Positions 16,015 through 21,529 of a DNA stretch of 64,000 nucleotides are shown here, piece by piece. This stretch comes from Patescibacteria group bacterium (GTDB lineage Bacteria; Patescibacteriota; Minisyncoccia; Phycocordibacterales; SBAW01). Position numbers and translations under genes: made by a program. How positions within the stretch are numbered: position 1 is the stretch's first letter; each line of letters opens with the position of its first letter. The stretch covers positions 8,288 to 72,287 of the forward strand of contig JAGWLV010000001.1 in assembly GCA_028864875.1 (NCBI GenBank), given 5' to 3'. The notes beneath the pieces are model-generated. The model did no database searches. It saw only the letters and a list, made by a program, of their open reading frames with translations, and was not told the DNA's origin.

Positions 16015-17125
16015 TGAGCGTTTTTAAAAACTTGGGCAGCTGGAGAAGAGGGACTATATCTTGCGAGGAATTTTTGATTTGCCGGACGATGACGGTGCCG
16101 TCGAGCACCTCGCGCTGGCCCATGATGATGAGATGCGATACCCCCGCCACAGTAGCCTCGCGCAGCTGGTCGCCGAGGTGCGCGGGATTAAACGAGTGGA
16201 GCACGGGGATGTGCGCGCGCCGCAAGTCCTCCAGCACCGAGAGAGCGCGCAGCTTCGCGGGGAGGCCGAGCTGCACGAAGTAGAGTTTGGCGCGCACAGC
16301 GCGCGCGCTCGGCAGCCCGGAGGAAGAGAGGCCTTTCTTGCGGAAGAAAACGCTCGCGCCCACCGCGGGTATCTGCCGGCCGGTAGAGCGGCGGGCAAAC
16401 TCGTCGAAGCGCCCGCCGAGCGTGCCCACAACGGTCGCGTCCTCCACCTCGGTGTCGAGTGCAAAGAGTATGCGCGGGTCGCGCTCGTCGCTCGCAAGCA
16501 GGTCGTCGAGCTCGTAAGGGAGCCCCAGGTGCTCGAGGTGCTCGAGCACCGTGCGGAAGTGCACGCGGCTCTTTTCGGTCAAAAAGTTGACCGGTCGCGG
16601 CCCTGTTTCGACAATGGTGCGGCAGGCCTGGCTCGTGCAGGTGTAGGCGCGCAGCGGATTGTGGCTCAAGGAGTTGCGACACGCCTCGTCGAGGTGCTCG
16701 GCCTTGCGCCGCAAGTACGCGGTGAGCTCGCGCTCAAAGCGCGCGCGCGAATCCTTGTCGCCGAGCGCGTTGAGCCGCACGCGCACCGGCGTGGCGCCCC
16801 ACTCGCCGAGCATCGTCCAAAGCACTTTCATGAGCATTACTTCACCGACGCTCTCTTCGGAGCCGACGACCTGAAGTCCGACTTCGCCCACGTCGCGCGC
16901 AACGCTGCCCGCGGGCGTGTGGCTGGGGTTGGTGCTCGCGTAGTAGTAGAGGAGCGGCACGCCGGCGGAGGCGCGCACGCCCACCTGGAGTGCGGAGGCG
17001 AATGTCGGCGCGCTGAAGCGCCGCCCCTCCGGCAGGTCGCGCAGCGGTTTGAAGCCGTAGTAGCCCGCGACGTCCTGCGCATGTTTGACGAATGCCGACG
17101 GCGTGCGCGGGGTGCCTTTGGTCAT
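16010..17125 (-). CDS. hisS: Histidine--tRNA ligase
   Basis: Class II aaRS core with GGRFDEF (HisRS GGRYD-like) motif and C-terminal anticodon-binding domain (HLIIMGQREVLDGTVIVRQI); start set at ATG overlapping lepB stop. Confidence 0.8.
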   Translation of the reverse strand: MTKGTPRTPSAFVKHAQDVAGYYGFKPLRDLPEGRRFSAPTFASALQVGVRASAGVPLLYYYASTNPSHTPAGSVARDVGEVGLQVVGSEESVGEVMLMKVLWTMLGEWGATPVRVRLNALGDKDSRARFERELTAYLRRKAEHLDEACRNSLSHNPLRAYTCTSQACRTIVETGPRPVNFLTEKSRVHFRTVLEHLEHLGLPYELDDLLASDERDPRILFALDTEVEDATVVGTLGGRFDEFARRSTGRQIPAVGASVFFRKKGLSSSGLPSARAVRAKLYFVQLGLPAKLRALSVLEDLRRAHIPVLHSFNPAHLGDQLREATVAGVSHLIIMGQREVLDGTVIVRQIKNSSQDIVPLLQLPKFLKTLK

Positions 17126-17694
17126 GGCAATTGTGCCTTGCCCGGGAAGATACTCACAGAAGTGATGGGGAGGAGCCGTACGAAGACGCGCCCGACAATA
17201 TTTGTGCGCGGCAAGGGCCCCCACACGCGGCTGTCGCTAGAAGCAGGTCTGTTGTCGCCGAGCACAAAGTACTCGTCGCCTCCGAGGGTATATGTGGCGT
17301 CGGAACCGTTGCCCTGATTGACGACGTAGGACTCGTCGAGCACCACATTTTGGCCGCTTGCTTCCTTTACCGAGATAGCGCCACCGGAAATAGTCACTGT
17401 TTCATTAGGGAGGCCTATGATGCGCTTGATAAAGAACTGCGAGGGGTTGCGCGGGTAGCGGAATACGATGACGTCGCCGCGCTGAGGCACCTCAAAGTGG
17501 TACGTAAGCTCATCGATGATGAGGTACTGGCCGTCTTTAAAGGTCGGCTCCATCGATGAGCCGGAGACGACATAGGGCTTGGCTACAAAAAGCCGCACCG
17601 GGGCGACGATGATGACCGCAAGAACGAGAAACTTCAGCAATTCCACCAAGAGACTACTGCGACGCTCTTGGTTCTGCGGAGGCATGGAGGGCAT
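17122..17694 (-). CDS. lepB: Signal peptidase I
   Basis: Catalytic Ser box SGSSMEPT, Lys box, GDNRPASSDSR box E; start ambiguous (ATG 17694 or GTG 17775). Confidence 0.85.
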   Translation of the reverse strand: MPSMPPQNQERRSSLLVELLKFLVLAVIIVAPVRLFVAKPYVVSGSSMEPTFKDGQYLIIDELTYHFEVPQRGDVIVFRYPRNPSQFFIKRIIGLPNETVTISGGAISVKEASGQNVVLDESYVVNQGNGSDATYTLGGDEYFVLGDNRPASSDSRVWGPLPRTNIVGRVFVRLLPITSVSIFPGKAQLP

Positions 17695-17722
17695 TGTACG
17701 CCTCGCGGTGTACAATGCAAGG

Positions 17723-18253
17723 GTGAGCTGGACAATTGTAGGTTTAGGGAATCCGAAAGATGAGTATGAAGGCACGCGTCACAACGTCGGGCAGGATGTG
17801 GTGGCAGAAATTGAGGAGAAATTGCCCTCCGGAGCCAAGGTACGCGCGCTCAATGTATATATGAACAACTCCGGCGGGGCGGTGCGCGCGCTCGTGCCCT
17901 CCGCAAAGGCCGCACAGAAGCTCGTTGTGGTGCACGACGAGCTCGACCTGCCCCTGGGGAAGATAAAGATATCAACCGGCGGCTCCGGGGGAGGACACAA
18001 CGGGGTCAAATCAATCATCCGCGCCCTCAAGACGGAGGATTTTGTGCGCGTGCGGATAGGGATCAGTCCCTCGAGCCCCGCGGGCAAGCCCAAACGCCCC
18101 GACGGGAAGAAGGTCGTCGACTTTGTGTTGGGGAAGTTCCGCCCGCCCGAGCGCGAGAAGCTCAAAAAAGTAAAAAAGCTGCTCTCCGAAGCGCTCGCGC
18201 TCATCGTTGAGCACGGCGTCGACCGCGCCCAGAGCGAAATCAACGCGCGCTAG
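17723..18253 (+). CDS. pth: Peptidyl-tRNA hydrolase
   Basis: IVGLGNPKDEYEGTRHNVG N-terminal signature; start ambiguous (GTG 17723 or ATG 17684). Confidence 0.85.
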   Translation: MSWTIVGLGNPKDEYEGTRHNVGQDVVAEIEEKLPSGAKVRALNVYMNNSGGAVRALVPSAKAAQKLVVVHDELDLPLGKIKISTGGSGGGHNGVKSIIRALKTEDFVRVRIGISPSSPAGKPKRPDGKKVVDFVLGKFRPPEREKLKKVKKLLSEALALIVEHGVDRAQSEINAR

Positions 18254-18321: not shown

Positions 18322-18651
18322 ATGTCCGAGAACATACCAGGCAGGGACGCACCTCACACCGTTAGGATTGGGGAGCTCTCCGTGCATCTGCTGGAGCCGG
18401 TGGTGCACTTCAGGGGCACCAGGTTTAAGACGACGCCCTTTGAATATGAAGTGCTGCGCTATCTTGTGCTCAGGAGCCCGACCCCCGTCTACGCCAAGAA
18501 GGTAATCGAACACATCACCGTCCCGGGCGAAGTGCCGCACTTGGCCCCGGTGCTCTCCCTGGCCGTCAGCCGGATGCGCAAACGCCTCGGCATCGCATAC
18601 CTGCCTCCGCGGGGGCGGGGGTATGTACTGCGCGCACCGGCGGTCGACTAA
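18322..18651 (+). CDS. Stand-alone OmpR/PhoB-type winged-helix DNA-binding protein
   Basis: Trans_reg_C-like segment FEYEVLRYLVLR...VYAKKVIEHI...LAVSRMRKRLG...RGRGYVL without receiver domain. Confidence 0.65.
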   Translation: MSENIPGRDAPHTVRIGELSVHLLEPVVHFRGTRFKTTPFEYEVLRYLVLRSPTPVYAKKVIEHITVPGEVPHLAPVLSLAVSRMRKRLGIAYLPPRGRGYVLRAPAVD

Positions 18652-19802: not shown

Positions 19803-19899
19803 ATTTGTTGTTGTTGCCCCTGGTCCCGTGTGCTGTCCGGATTAATCCTGGTGGCGTTAATAAAGAGACTGCTCTTTATTGATAGCGACTATAGCACAG

Positions 19900-19934
19900 C
19901 CTCTGTAGAAAAAGCAAAACCCCCGCCCAAGTGT
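19900..19934 (-). terminator. Rho-independent terminator downstream of the porin-like small gene
   Basis: cccccgcc-loop-ggcggggg hairpin, followed on the minus strand by ttttgctttt. Confidence 0.6.
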
Positions 19935-19983
19935 GGCGGGGGTCTGTGGGTTGTGTGCCCAGTAGCTCGACGACAGACCGTCG

Positions 19984-20289
19984 TCAGCCCGGGTTGTACT
20001 TCGGGTCGGTGCCGAACGGCGCGCCGAGCGTGATGGTCTTGGTGTGAACGACCAGGCCAGCACCGGAAGCGTTGATGATCGGTTCGACCGGCATGTTCAG
20101 AACCGTACCACCGTCGAGTTTCAACACCGTGTCAGCGCCCGGAATGTAATAGAATCCGGTGCCGTAGAGACTGGAGACCTTCACATACTGGACCGGCTTG
20201 GCCTTGACGGGAAGATCGGCAGCGTACGCTCCGGCAGTAGCGACGAGACCCGCCGCCGTGCCCAACAATAGGCTCTTCACCATCTTCAT
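19984..20289 (-). CDS. Small secreted protein (101 aa); N-terminal 60 aa resemble Rhizobiales Porin_2-family OMPs
   Basis: SD GAAAGGA 6 nt upstream of ATG; signal peptide MKMVKSLLLGTAAGLVATAGAYA then ADLPVKAKPVQYVKVSSLYGTGFYYIPGADT, recalled as closely matching Bradyrhizobium/Brucella-type porin N-termini; remainder unrelated; own terminator. Confidence 0.55.
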   Translation of the reverse strand: MKMVKSLLLGTAAGLVATAGAYAADLPVKAKPVQYVKVSSLYGTGFYYIPGADTVLKLDGGTVLNMPVEPIINASGAGLVVHTKTITLGAPFGTDPKYNPG

Positions 20290-20492
20290 GGTGTATCCTT
20301 TCTCGCTTGTACGTCGTCTGGTCCTGTATAGCCAGGCACTTTTACTCTACACAATTAAGACCTCAGTCGCTAGGGGAGGGCGTGTATAAGAAAATGCCCC
20401 CGCTTGGTGATTCAAGCGGGGGCGGGGGACCATGCAGTGTCCTTTGGTTGTGCCGGTAATCACCCCGGCGGCGATTAGGCCGACCAGCCGGA

Positions 20493-20744
20493 CTAGGCCG
20501 GACAGTTCCGGTAGCTGCCGATCGTGGAGTTGATGGTACCGGTCACCGGGTCGCGGGTCACCTTGTTGACGGAGCCGAAGACGGCGCCGACAACGGCCGA
20601 GCCGAGCGACAGCGGACAGGTCAGGACGGAAGCGATGGTCGCTTGCTTGGGCTGCGCCTTCTTGGTGGCGTGCTTGGCGAAGGCCGGATTTCCGAGACTC
20701 AGGGCGACCGCCGCGGCGGTTGCGAGCAAAAGGACTTTTTTCAC
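20493..20744 (-). CDS. Small secreted protein (83 aa), hypothetical
   Basis: Perfect SD AAGGAGG 8 nt upstream of GTG start; signal peptide MKKVLLLATAAAVALSLGNPAFA; two Cys in mature part. Confidence 0.5.
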   Translation of the reverse strand: MKKVLLLATAAAVALSLGNPAFAKHATKKAQPKQATIASVLTCPLSLGSAVVGAVFGSVNKVTRDPVTGTINSTIGSYRNCPA

Positions 20745-21391
20745 GAGAAGAACCTCCTTGGTTTCAAGCGCCCTAAAGACGCGCCCGCACCTTACATGAA
20801 GGCGCTATGCAAGTCAAGACTCATAGTGAAAGCCCCCGACCTGCAACGCAGGCGGGGGCTCAGGTTGGCCGGAGTCGCACTCGCCGGCCGTGCTCTCAAC
20901 TGGAGCGTTTCCTCCCGCGACTAACTTGCGTGGTGGCCTAGGCGGCCATCGGCACTTGTTCGGTCTTTGGTTCGAAGTCGAAGCTCATTTGATTGCGCCT
21001 CATCACGAGCTCCTGGTAGTCCTCTTCGGACCGGATGCCCGCTTGGAGCACCGAGTCCGGTTCGATACCGTGGATGCCATACGCCTTGCCTTGCGGCACG
21101 GTGTGGCCCCGCAGACTTGTCGTACTCATCGAAGTGGATCCTCCTGCTATGGCCTTCCCGTATATGAAAAAGGCCGAAGAACTGCTCCATGCATCATCCC
21201 CAGGGTTATACACACCTGTAGGGCACGGACTGGAGATAGTAACCCACCCCTAGTGAGGTGTCAATGAAGCGGGGCGGGCAAAGAAAAAGGCCGGTAGTTT
21301 TTGTCCCTCCCGGCCTTCTTTACGTGCTATACGCTACACGTACGCAGTACTTGTACAAAACGCTTGTGACTCAACGCAAACGCTACATTAC

Positions 21392-21497
21392 GCGTGGATT
21401 TATGATGATACAAGGAGTGTATAAATAGTCAATGAAGACAAATGTGGATAACTCCCGACATCTGTGGATAACTTTGGCCGACGGGAAAAGTGGATTG
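21392..21497. promoter_or_regulatory. DnaA-box cluster (two perfect TGTGGATAA 9-mers plus two 1-2-mismatch boxes) next to an AT-rich stretch
   Basis: TGTGGATAA at 21443-21451 and 21463-21471; GTGGATTTA at 21394-21402; AGTGGATTG at 21489-21497; about 38% GC segment at 21340-21440. Confidence 0.55.
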
Positions 21498-21529
21498 AAA
21501 ATAAGGCGATTTTTTGCTAAAATGGTGAG

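What the first reader, a model, noticed from the sequence alone, without database searches (positions are those of the whole stretch)
19984..20744. Two SD-equipped small secreted-protein genes, one with an N-terminus closely resembling Rhizobiales porin (Porin_2) N-termini
The 19984-20289 gene (101 aa) has a GAAAGGA SD and its own terminator. It encodes MKMVKSLLLGTAAGLVATAGAYA|ADLPVKAKPVQYVKVSSLYGTGFYYIPGADT.LK. From memory this matches Bradyrhizobium/Brucella-type porin signal peptide plus the first ~35 mature residues almost position by position, with the two porin Cys replaced by Ser and Val; the remainder is unrelated and short. By established knowledge, in Rhizobiales the mature N-terminal Ala-Asp of such outer-membrane proteins is covalently tethered to peptidoglycan by L,D-transpeptidases. 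A stand-alone mimic of that N-terminal module in a CPR-like, presumably episymbiotic, genome could be a host-envelope-targeting factor or a captured gene fragment. The neighbouring 83-aa secreted protein at 20493-20744 has a perfect AAGGAGG SD and is equally unexplained.
Basis: partly seen in the sequence, partly recalled or inferred. Interest (0 to 1): 0.65.

Follow-up and report, generated by a model that had tools for sequence, protein, structure and literature searches.

The report
Borrowed porin start on CPR gene
A tiny soil bacterium with no outer membrane carries a small gene whose first 60 codons were copied from an outer-membrane porin gene of soil alphaproteobacteria; it is a real but one-off captured gene fragment that cannot form a porin, and it may hint at who this bacterium lives with.

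Summary
Both ORFs exist on the minus strand, each with an SD and a hairpin terminator.

**The 101-aa gene**
- Residues 25-60 hit Pfam Porin_2 (49 bits, E=7.5e-13), but only profile positions 1-38 of 357.
- Residues 1-60 are 75-85% identical to Hyphomicrobiales porin N-termini (named hits are Pseudolabrys and Bradyrhizobium). DNA identity is 78-83% from the ATG for about 160-180 nt.
- The 5'UTR and SD are not shared, and the 41-aa tail has no detectable relatives.

**Context**
- The contig is genuinely Paceibacterota. GyrA–MBL hydrolase–[gap]–S1–Pth–LepB synteny is conserved in related loci.
- The gap is a size-variable slot. None of 89 related loci carries either gene.
- The 83-aa protein and a third 63-aa gene in the island are strict ORFans.

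**Best reading**
- This is a horizontally captured porin 5' fragment that now forms a chimeric, Sec-exported small protein. NCBI's "porin" name for it is a misannotation.
- The signal peptide and the Ala-Asp linker (residues 1-37) look constrained.
- Residues 38-60 look neutral and have lost both invariant Cys.

**Not tested**
- The peptidoglycan-tether mimic idea remains possible but untested. No L,D-transpeptidase was seen in the sequence available.
- An assembly chimera is unlikely, but read coverage could not be checked.

The parts
19984..20289 (-). Chimeric 101-aa gene (NCBI MDE2071145.1, annotated 'porin'): Sec signal peptide, then a porin-derived N-terminus, then an orphan tail
   Evidence: ORF. 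Exact NCBI match. Porin_2 hit.
20110..20289 (-). Porin-derived segment, codons 1-60: signal peptide (1-23, predicted cleavage AYA|AD), the Ala-Asp linker ADLPVKAKPVQYVK (24-37), and a degraded first-strand/Cys-loop region (38-60)
   Evidence: blastn gives 78-83% identity to L036-L038 from the ATG for 161-179 nt. Amino-acid identity is 75-85% to 118 porin N-termini. The unique changes Q22Y, C39S, A44T, T52A, C55V and G59D are shared by 0 of 118 sequences. Window-specific changes are 2 nonsynonymous and 5 synonymous in codons 1-37, against 9 and 3 in codons 38-60.
19987..20109 (-). 41-codon tail with no detectable relatives
   Evidence: In-frame GC3 is 34 of 41 (p=0.005), like host genes. No porin similarity in any frame. 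A profile of the collinear porin region gives -1.0 bits, and 222 of 2000 shuffles score at least as high. An index-free phmmer search found only repeat-protein artefacts.
20296..20302 (-). SD GAAAGGA, 6 nt upstream of the ATG. It is not shared with the alphaproteobacterial genes, which have a conserved 5'UTR and a GGAGG SD.
   Evidence: Sequence; upstream alignment.
19917..19945 (-). Intrinsic terminator of the 101-aa gene (11-bp stem, T-run)
   Evidence: Comparable hairpin terminators occur elsewhere in the window.
20493..20744 (-). 83-aa ORFan gene (MDE2071146.1, KGI70_00190). GTG start, signal peptide ending AFA|KH, cationic N-terminus, second hydrophobic stretch at 37-55, two Cys.
20753..20759 (-). 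SD AAGGAGG, 8 nt upstream of the GTG start of the 83-aa gene
   Evidence: Sequence.
20396..20423 (-). Intrinsic terminator of the 83-aa gene
20938..21129 (-). Third ORFan small gene of the island (63 aa, KGI70_00195). No signal peptide. AGGAGG lies about 10 nt upstream. GC3 is 0.77.
   Evidence: Sequence. Only self-hit among 5.8 billion proteins. GC3.
20831..20858 (-). Hairpin terminator-like element downstream of the third small gene (weak T-run)
19803..21529 (.). Variable slot between the S1-domain gene (minus strand) and the MBL hydrolase/gyrA genes (plus strand). It holds the three lineage-specific small genes.
   Evidence: The gap is about 200-2150 bp in 51 related loci with conserved flanks. 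There is no DNA or protein similarity between the window's gap and the relatives' gaps.

Best explanation
**What it is**
- A roughly 180-nt 5' piece of a Porin_2 porin gene from a soil Hyphomicrobiales bacterium was horizontally captured by this Paceibacterota (CPR) genome. The closest sampled relatives are Xanthobacteraceae such as Pseudolabrys, and Bradyrhizobium.
- It landed in a hypervariable slot upstream of the S1-domain gene.
- It now forms the start of a chimeric 101-codon gene with its own local SD and terminator.

**How it most likely works (inferred)**
- The porin-derived part supplies a ready-made Sec signal peptide.
- After export and cleavage at AYA|AD by signal peptidase I (a LepB gene lies 2.2 kb away), a 78-residue, Cys-free, beta-prone soluble polypeptide is released at the cell surface.
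- It cannot be a porin, because it lacks about 320 of the 357 profile positions and CPR bacteria have no outer membrane.
- It belongs to a set of three lineage-specific small genes in a slot where relatives encode other, unrelated signal-peptide proteins. Any role is therefore most likely at the cell surface or partner interface, and it is young and lineage-specific.

**Shown versus inferred**
- Shown: homology, boundaries, genomic context, singleton status.
- Inferred: expression, export, cleavage site, direction and mechanism of transfer.
For: - Porin_2 hit limited to profile positions 1-38 of 357.
- 1216 hits, with named ones Pseudolabrys/Pseudomonadota. The short 'hits' are truncated or frameshift-split real porins in alphaproteobacterial contexts.
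- Plasmid matches come only from Hyphomicrobiales and nearly all stop at residue 60.
- DNA identity is 78-83% from the ATG for 161-179 nt. The conserved alphaproteobacterial 5'UTR and SD are absent.
- Where the amino acid is identical, the codon is also identical in 27-31 of 50-51 cases.
- Flanks are CPR: S1, LepB, Pth, MBL hydrolase and GyrA, with synteny in 51 loci.
- Slot size varies from about 200 to 2150 bp, and relatives hold unrelated signal-peptide proteins there on the same strand.
- 0 of 89 related loci carry the gene.
- The tail shows a coding-like GC3.
- The SD and terminator are in the native style.
- Codons 1-37 look constrained (2 nonsynonymous, 5 synonymous; p=0.012 against neutral). 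Codons 38-60 look neutral (9 and 3).
Against: - No promoter was detected upstream and there are no expression data.
- The gene is a singleton, so purifying selection cannot be shown by comparison with orthologues.
- The constraint test uses small counts, a post hoc partition and an unsampled donor.
- The tail lies where true porins have a hypervariable loop. A longer original porin piece from an unsampled donor therefore cannot be excluded (weak collinear match to a Rhizobium porin, E=0.078 on its own).
- The structure model is uninformative (pLDDT 45).
- Read-level support for the junctions could not be examined.
Confidence: 0.6

Rival explanations
1. Functional tether-module mimic. The retained signal peptide plus the N-terminal Ala-Asp linker (ADLPVKAKPVQYVK) is the selected part. 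After export, the free Ala-Asp N-terminus acts as an acceptor for L,D-transpeptidases. These could belong to an alphaproteobacterial partner, where the protein would compete with or hitch onto OMP-peptidoglycan tethering. Alternatively they could be the CPR's own, anchoring the small protein to its own wall.
For: - The Ala-Asp N-terminus and the whole 14-residue linker are unchanged, while residues 38-60 carry 5 of the 6 changes unique to the window.
- The tethering premise is documented for Hyphomicrobiales OMPs (PMC10787603, PMC12729407).
- Dickeya OutB is a precedent for a non-OMP protein borrowing a tether motif.
- Losing both Cys removes dependence on periplasmic disulfide formation (inference).
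Against: - There is no homologue in any of 89 related loci or among 5.8 billion proteins beyond the porins themselves.
- No YkuD catalytic motif was found in the window or in 0.82 Mb of related loci, though these are not whole genomes.
- No route into a partner's periplasm is known.
- Conservation of residues 1-37 is partly explained by signal-peptide and cleavage-site function alone.
- The statistics are small-sample and post hoc.
Confidence: 0.12
2. Non-functional relic. A larger piece of porin DNA was taken up and has mostly decayed. The present ORF is an accidental open frame that is not expressed or has no role.
For: - Singleton status.
- No detectable promoter.
- Five otherwise invariant positions, including both Cys, are lost.
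- The overall window-specific pN/pS of about 0.45 is not significantly below 1 (p=0.075).
- There is a weak collinear match of the tail to a Rhizobium porin.
Against: - The SD is well placed at 6-nt spacing and there is a strong dedicated terminator.
- The frame is intact, with a coding-type GC3 in the tail (p=0.005).
- Nonsynonymous changes are almost absent from codons 1-37.
- No porin remnant lies downstream of the stop in any frame.
- CPR genomes are small and gene-dense (established knowledge), so dead DNA is not expected to persist.
Confidence: 0.2
3. Assembly or binning artefact. The porin-like stretch is alphaproteobacterial sequence mis-joined into a CPR contig.
For: The MAG is from a metagenome, Hyphomicrobiales porin 5' ends are very abundant in such data (1216 hits), and read coverage could not be checked here.
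Against: - The porin-like tract is only about 180 nt. It is fused in frame to unique sequence.
- It sits 180 bp from the CPR S1 gene on one side and about 1.2 kb from the CPR MBL/gyrA genes on the other.
- It differs from every one of 118 alphaproteobacterial sequences at positions they never vary, so it is not a copy of a working porin gene.
- Its SD and upstream region are not alphaproteobacterial.
- A chimera would need two precise junctions within about 200 nt.
Confidence: 0.05

Closest known systems
Porin_2 (PF02530) general porins of Hyphomicrobiales, e.g. Bradyrhizobium and Pseudolabrys porins, Rhizobium RopA-like porins, Brucella Omp2a/2b
   Same: The signal peptide and the first 37 mature residues are homologous at both protein level (75-85%) and DNA level (78-83%). 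The mature N-terminus is Ala-Asp.
   Different: Only profile positions 1-38 of 357 are present, so there is no beta-barrel. The conserved DARTQTEYGTLR region is absent. Both invariant Cys are lost. The host is a CPR bacterium without an outer membrane. NCBI's product name 'porin' is therefore misleading.
N-terminally peptidoglycan-tethered OMPs of Brucella and Agrobacterium (Ala-Asp motif, L,D-transpeptidase dependent; Godessart et al. 2021, as summarised in PMC10787603 and PMC12729407)
   Same: The predicted mature N-terminus Ala-Asp and the adjacent linker are fully retained.
   Different: There is no membrane-embedded barrel to tether. No L,D-transpeptidase was identified in the sequence available. 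Linkage is untested.
Dickeya dadantii OutB (an inner-membrane protein whose C-terminus mimics the Lpp tether motif; PMC12274547, via PMC12729407)
   Same: It is a precedent for a non-OMP protein carrying a tether motif borrowed from an abundant envelope protein.
   Different: In OutB the mimicry is within one organism, at the C-terminus, and experimentally shown. Here it would be across phyla, at the N-terminus, and hypothetical.
Chimeric or orphan genes born from horizontally acquired gene fragments (general phenomenon; own knowledge)
   Same: A foreign 5' fragment is fused in frame to sequence without relatives, under local expression signals, and is present in a single lineage.
   Different: The donor and recipient are a diderm alphaproteobacterium and a CPR bacterium. 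The captured piece is an export signal plus an envelope-tether module.

Membership tests
Porin_2 (PF02530) porin | Pfam score above the gathering threshold | tested here: met
   49.1 bits against a cutoff of 22, E=7.5e-13. The match is confined to profile positions 1-38.
Porin_2 (PF02530) porin | A complete beta-barrel domain (about 357 profile positions; proteins of about 360-550 aa) | tested here: not met
   The protein is 101 aa. Nothing aligns beyond residue 60. Real family members examined here are 363 and 550 aa.
Porin_2 (PF02530) porin | The conserved Cys pair in the N-terminal region (C39 and C55 in precursor numbering) | tested here: not met
   Cys is present in 118 of 118 alphaproteobacterial sequences. 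The window has Ser39 and Val55.
Porin_2 (PF02530) porin | An organism with an outer membrane and BAM machinery | not testable with these tools
   The contig is Paceibacterota. That CPR bacteria lack an outer membrane is established knowledge and was not tested here.
Ala-Asp peptidoglycan-tethered envelope proteins of Hyphomicrobiales | A cleavable Sec signal peptide that exposes an N-terminal Ala-Asp | tested here: met
   The sequence has an n-region MKMVK, a hydrophobic core and AYA|AD. This is a by-eye -3/-1 rule; SignalP was not available.
Ala-Asp peptidoglycan-tethered envelope proteins of Hyphomicrobiales | A cognate L,D-transpeptidase (YkuD) in the same cell or in the target cell | tested here: inconclusive
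   No [ST]xGC[IVLF]R-type motif in a plausible ORF in the 64-kb window or in 0.82 Mb of related loci. Whole genomes were not available.
Ala-Asp peptidoglycan-tethered envelope proteins of Hyphomicrobiales | A covalent bond between the N-terminus and mDAP of peptidoglycan | not testable with these tools
   This requires muropeptide mass spectrometry.
Sec-dependent small bacteriocin-like peptides (considered for the 83-aa protein) | A significant match to a curated family | tested here: not met
   The best match is NCBIfam NF053514 (BLB8/JUQZ-1) at 17.9 bits against a cutoff of 40, covering residues 1-58 including the signal peptide. There are no Pfam, PHROG or PADLOC hits and no homologues.

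The most novel reading that the evidence does not exclude
The retained signal peptide plus Ala-Asp linker is a functional, cross-phylum mimic of the alphaproteobacterial OMP-peptidoglycan tether. A CPR episymbiont would export a decoy or hitch-hiker substrate for its partner's L,D-transpeptidases (or for its own), using a module stolen from the partner's most abundant envelope protein. This would both identify the partner lineage (Xanthobacteraceae/Bradyrhizobium-like soil bacteria) and reveal a new way for an epibiont to engage a host envelope.
Probability: 0.1. Interest if true: 0.8.

Novelty: new variant of a known kind. Interest (0 to 1): 0.35.

Why it matters
- Hosts of soil Paceibacterota are essentially unknown. 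A clearly alphaproteobacterial (Hyphomicrobiales) gene fragment fixed in such a genome is a concrete, testable pointer to DNA exchange with that group, and possibly physical association with it.
- It is a clean example of how a streamlined CPR genome can make a new exported protein from a foreign 5' gene fragment.
- It shows that automated annotation ('porin') can be wrong when a short conserved N-terminal module alone passes a family threshold.
- If the Ala-Asp linker proved to be a working tether substrate, that would be a new kind of inter-bacterial envelope mimicry. On present evidence that is a minority possibility, and the gene is a singleton.

Tried and rejected
1. **A family of stand-alone mini porin-N-terminus proteins.** Rejected. 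The 68-171-aa hits are contig-end truncations or frameshift-split full porins in alphaproteobacterial contexts.
2. **Homologues in related Patescibacteria.** None in 35 GTDB and 54 metagenome loci.
3. **The contig in the gene-position index.** Not on record.
4. **The tail as a frameshifted or decayed porin.** No signal in any frame. The profile test is no better than shuffles. A weak collinear Rhizobium match is not significant alone. The test has little power because that porin region is hypervariable.
5. **The tail as a repeat unit of giant surface proteins.** The phmmer hits are artefacts of summing many weak matches in tandem-repeat proteins.
6. **Structure prediction.** pLDDT 45 and pTM 0.21, so no fold search was run.
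7. **Phage vector.** No match in IMG/VR or INPHARED.
8. **Foreign terminator style.** My narrow regex found only the three island terminators. The general scans show equally strong GC hairpins elsewhere, so I dropped the idea.
9. **RNA genes in the gap.** Only sub-threshold hits on terminator hairpins.
10. **Flanking repeats or mobile-element signatures around the island.** Only short, chance-level repeats.
11. **Remnants of the relatives' slot proteins in the window.** None.
12. **oriC in the gap.** The DnaA-box pair is not conserved in relatives and there is no skew switch.
13. **Literature precedent for porin fragments in Patescibacteria.** None found. The primary tethering paper is not held, so reviews were used instead.

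Full report
**1. What is there**

Two ORFs lie on the minus strand:
- 19984-20289 (ATG, 101 aa).
- 20493-20744 (GTG, 83 aa).

Their signals, read directly and from the scan:
- The first gene has GAAAGGA 6 nt upstream of the start. The second has AAGGAGG 8 nt upstream.
- Each is followed by an 11-bp GC-rich hairpin and a T-run, at 19945-19917 and 20423-20396.
- No sigma-70-like promoter was found in front of either gene.
- Comparable hairpin terminators occur elsewhere in the window, so these signals are in the genome's own style. An early impression that the island's terminators were unique came from an over-narrow regex, and I withdraw it.

**2. The porin resemblance is real and specific**

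- Pfam Porin_2 (PF02530) matches residues 25-60 at 49.1 bits (cutoff 22), E=7.5e-13. Only profile positions 1-38 of 357 are covered.
- A search of 5.8 billion proteins gave 1216 hits. The one full-length match is the protein itself (MDE2071145.1, 'porin [Patescibacteria group bacterium]', on a 75.7-kb contig).
- The other best hits are 68-171 aa and looked at first like a mini-protein family. Their sequences and contexts show otherwise. They are contig-end truncations (L036, a Pseudolabrys MAG) or frameshift-split full porin genes (L037, L038), with DUF3551 and TPR neighbours.
- Over residues 1-60 the window protein is 75-85% identical to 118 such sequences, which are on average 91% identical to each other.
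- In PLSDB the matches come only from Hyphomicrobiales (Bradyrhizobium, Agrobacterium, Rhizobium, Methylobacterium and others). They are annotated 'porin' where annotated, and nearly all stop at residue 60.
- Pseudolabrys belongs to Xanthobacteraceae, Hyphomicrobiales.

**3. DNA-level boundaries**

- blastn against three alphaproteobacterial genes gives 78-83% identity, starting exactly at the ATG and ending after 161-179 nt.
- Where the amino acid is the same, the codon is also identical in 27-31 of 50-51 cases. This is common descent, not convergence.
- The three alphaproteobacterial genes share a conserved 5'UTR and a GGAGG SD, and the window has none of it.
- Downstream, neither the 41-codon tail nor the DNA as far as the S1 gene resembles a porin body in any frame.
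- A profile of the collinear porin region scores the tail at -1.0 bits, and 222 of 2000 shuffles score at least as high.
- Caveat: that part of true porins is a hypervariable loop, so this test has little power. A Rhizobium porin gives a weak collinear match (E=0.078 on its own). The captured piece may originally have been longer than 180 nt.
- An index-free phmmer search of the tail against 1.84 billion representatives returned only tandem-repeat proteins, where many weak matches add up. I do not regard these as homologues.
- The tail does look coding. In-frame GC3 is 34 of 41 (p=0.005), matching the GC3 of neighbouring genes (0.67-0.81).

**4. The genome is CPR and the site is a variable slot**

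- Flanking genes are an S1-domain protein, signal peptidase I, peptidyl-tRNA hydrolase, an MBL-fold hydrolase and GyrA.
- The S1 protein is 77-82% identical to those of Paceibacterota, Parcubacteria and Adlerbacteria MAGs, many of them soil MAGs.
- The order GyrA–MBL–[gap]–S1–Pth–LepB is conserved in 51 loci.
- The gap ranges from about 200 to about 2150 bp and is 1727 bp here.
- In several relatives the gap holds other signal-peptide proteins on the same strand as S1. Two of them (L002, L006) are clearly related to each other (E about 4e-9), and L005 matches L002 only weakly (E=0.004). None is related to the window's genes and none has a Pfam family.
- Neither the 101-aa nor the 83-aa protein has a homologue in any of 89 related loci.
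- The 83-aa protein is a strict ORFan.
- The island also contains a third small gene, 20938-21129 on the minus strand. It is 63 aa, has AGGAGG upstream, shows GC3 of 0.77, and is followed by a hairpin at 20858-20831. NCBI annotates it as KGI70_00195, and it is also an ORFan.

**5. Pattern of change in the captured segment**

- Six amino-acid states are found in none of the 118 alphaproteobacterial sequences: Q22Y, C39S, A44T, T52A, C55V and G59D. Five of them replace residues that are invariant in 117-118 of the 118.
- None falls in residues 1-21 or 23-37.
- I counted nucleotide changes where the window differs from all three alphaproteobacterial genes. Codons 1-37 have 2 nonsynonymous and 5 synonymous changes (p=0.012 against the neutral 0.75). 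Codons 38-60 have 9 and 3, exactly the neutral ratio.
- These counts are small, the split was chosen after seeing the data, and the true donor is unsampled. This is suggestive only.
- The pattern fits a product in which the export signal, and perhaps the Ala-Asp linker, still matters, while the former first barrel strand and its disulfide do not.

**6. Mechanism**

- *Shown:* homology, boundaries, context, singleton status.
- *Inferred:*
  - The gene is translated from its own SD.
  - The product is exported by Sec and cut at AYA|AD by signal peptidase I (LepB lies at 17122-17775).
  - This releases a 78-residue, Cys-free, near-neutral polypeptide without further hydrophobic segments.
- It cannot form a porin barrel.
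- The most economical account is capture of an abundant, highly conserved 5' porin fragment from environmental or partner DNA. That fragment then served as a ready-made secretion leader for a new small surface or secreted protein in a slot that turns over quickly.
- That CPR bacteria take up foreign DNA is general knowledge and was not tested here.

**7. The tether idea**

- Two reviews state that Hyphomicrobiales OMPs are covalently linked to peptidoglycan through a conserved N-terminal Ala-Asp motif by L,D-transpeptidases (PMC10787603; PMC12729407). The primary paper is not in the library.
- The window protein keeps that N-terminus and the following 12 residues unchanged.
- However, no YkuD-type motif was found in the window or in 0.82 Mb of related loci. 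These are not whole genomes.
- There is no conservation across genomes, and no known way for the protein to reach a partner's periplasm.
- I keep it as a minority reading, about 0.1.

**8. Artefact**

- Contig-level contamination is excluded by the synteny.
- A read-level chimera would need two junctions about 200 nt apart, an in-frame fusion, a non-alphaproteobacterial SD, and a porin fragment mutated at sites that working porins never change. This is unlikely, but coverage could not be inspected.

**9. The 83-aa protein**

- It has a signal peptide (…NPAFA|KH), a cationic mature N-terminus, a second hydrophobic stretch at residues 37-55 (KD 1.85) rich in small residues, and two Cys.
- There is no significant family match. 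The best is a sub-threshold NCBIfam hit covering residues 1-58, signal peptide included.
- It may be a small membrane-anchored or membrane-active peptide. Nothing more can be said.

**10. Verdict**

- The 'host-envelope-targeting mimic' is neither excluded nor supported.
- The NCBI name 'porin' is a misannotation.
- The case is a new variant of a known kind: an orphan gene built on a horizontally acquired fragment. It is of moderate-to-low interest because it is a singleton, with some value as a pointer to Hyphomicrobiales as DNA donors, and possibly partners, of a soil Paceibacterota lineage.

Noticed in passing
window 20938-21129 (-), hairpin at 20858-20831, promoter-like site at 21264-21236 (-): A third small gene in the same island: 63 aa, no signal peptide, acidic, AGGAGG about 10 nt upstream, GC3 0.77. 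NCBI annotates it as KGI70_00195. Its only hit among 5.8 billion proteins is itself. A TTGACA-17-TACTAT site lies upstream.
   Followed up: partly
window 21443-21451 and 21463-21471 (-), with a 1-mismatch copy at 21206-21214 (+): Two perfect DnaA-box consensus 9-mers (TTATCCACA) sit 20 nt apart inside a 17-nt direct repeat. They lie just upstream of a promoter-like site (21495-21523) for the MBL hydrolase/gyrA genes, in a gap flanked by divergent genes. They are the only perfect boxes in 64 kb. They are not conserved in relatives (1 of 51 gaps has even one box), and there is no GC-skew switch. This could be a lineage-specific DnaA-regulated promoter or chance duplication, and is unlikely to be oriC.
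   Followed up: partly
L002:9301-9777, L006:9315-9728, L005:9071-9661, L001:8727-9257, L010:4008-4586 (all + strand, upstream of S1): Related Paceibacterota carry different signal-peptide proteins of 137-196 aa in the same MBL–S1 slot. L002 and L006 are clearly related to each other (41% identity), and L005 matches L002 only weakly (E=0.004). L001 and L010 are unrelated. None has a Pfam family. The slot looks like a hotspot for turnover of exported proteins.
   Followed up: partly
window 18322-18651 (+): A 109-aa ORF between S1 and Pth has a weak winged-helix (Trans_reg_C) match below threshold. It has a tblastn counterpart in only one of 35 related loci (L014), so this is a second variable spot in an otherwise conserved gene order.
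   Followed up: no
L037:3001-4408, L038:3001-3828 (ENA assemblies ERZ25039562 and ERZ25039606): Alphaproteobacterial porin genes in these assemblies are split into two or more called genes by frameshifts. This generates many short 'Porin_2' proteins with nonsense C-termini in protein databases, and these can masquerade as a mini-protein family.
   Followed up: yes
window 19803-19825 (upstream of the S1-domain gene, - strand): The S1-domain gene has no purine-rich SD in the 20 nt before its ATG (…ggggcaacaacaacaaatATG). The three small ORFan genes next to it all have strong SDs.
   Followed up: no
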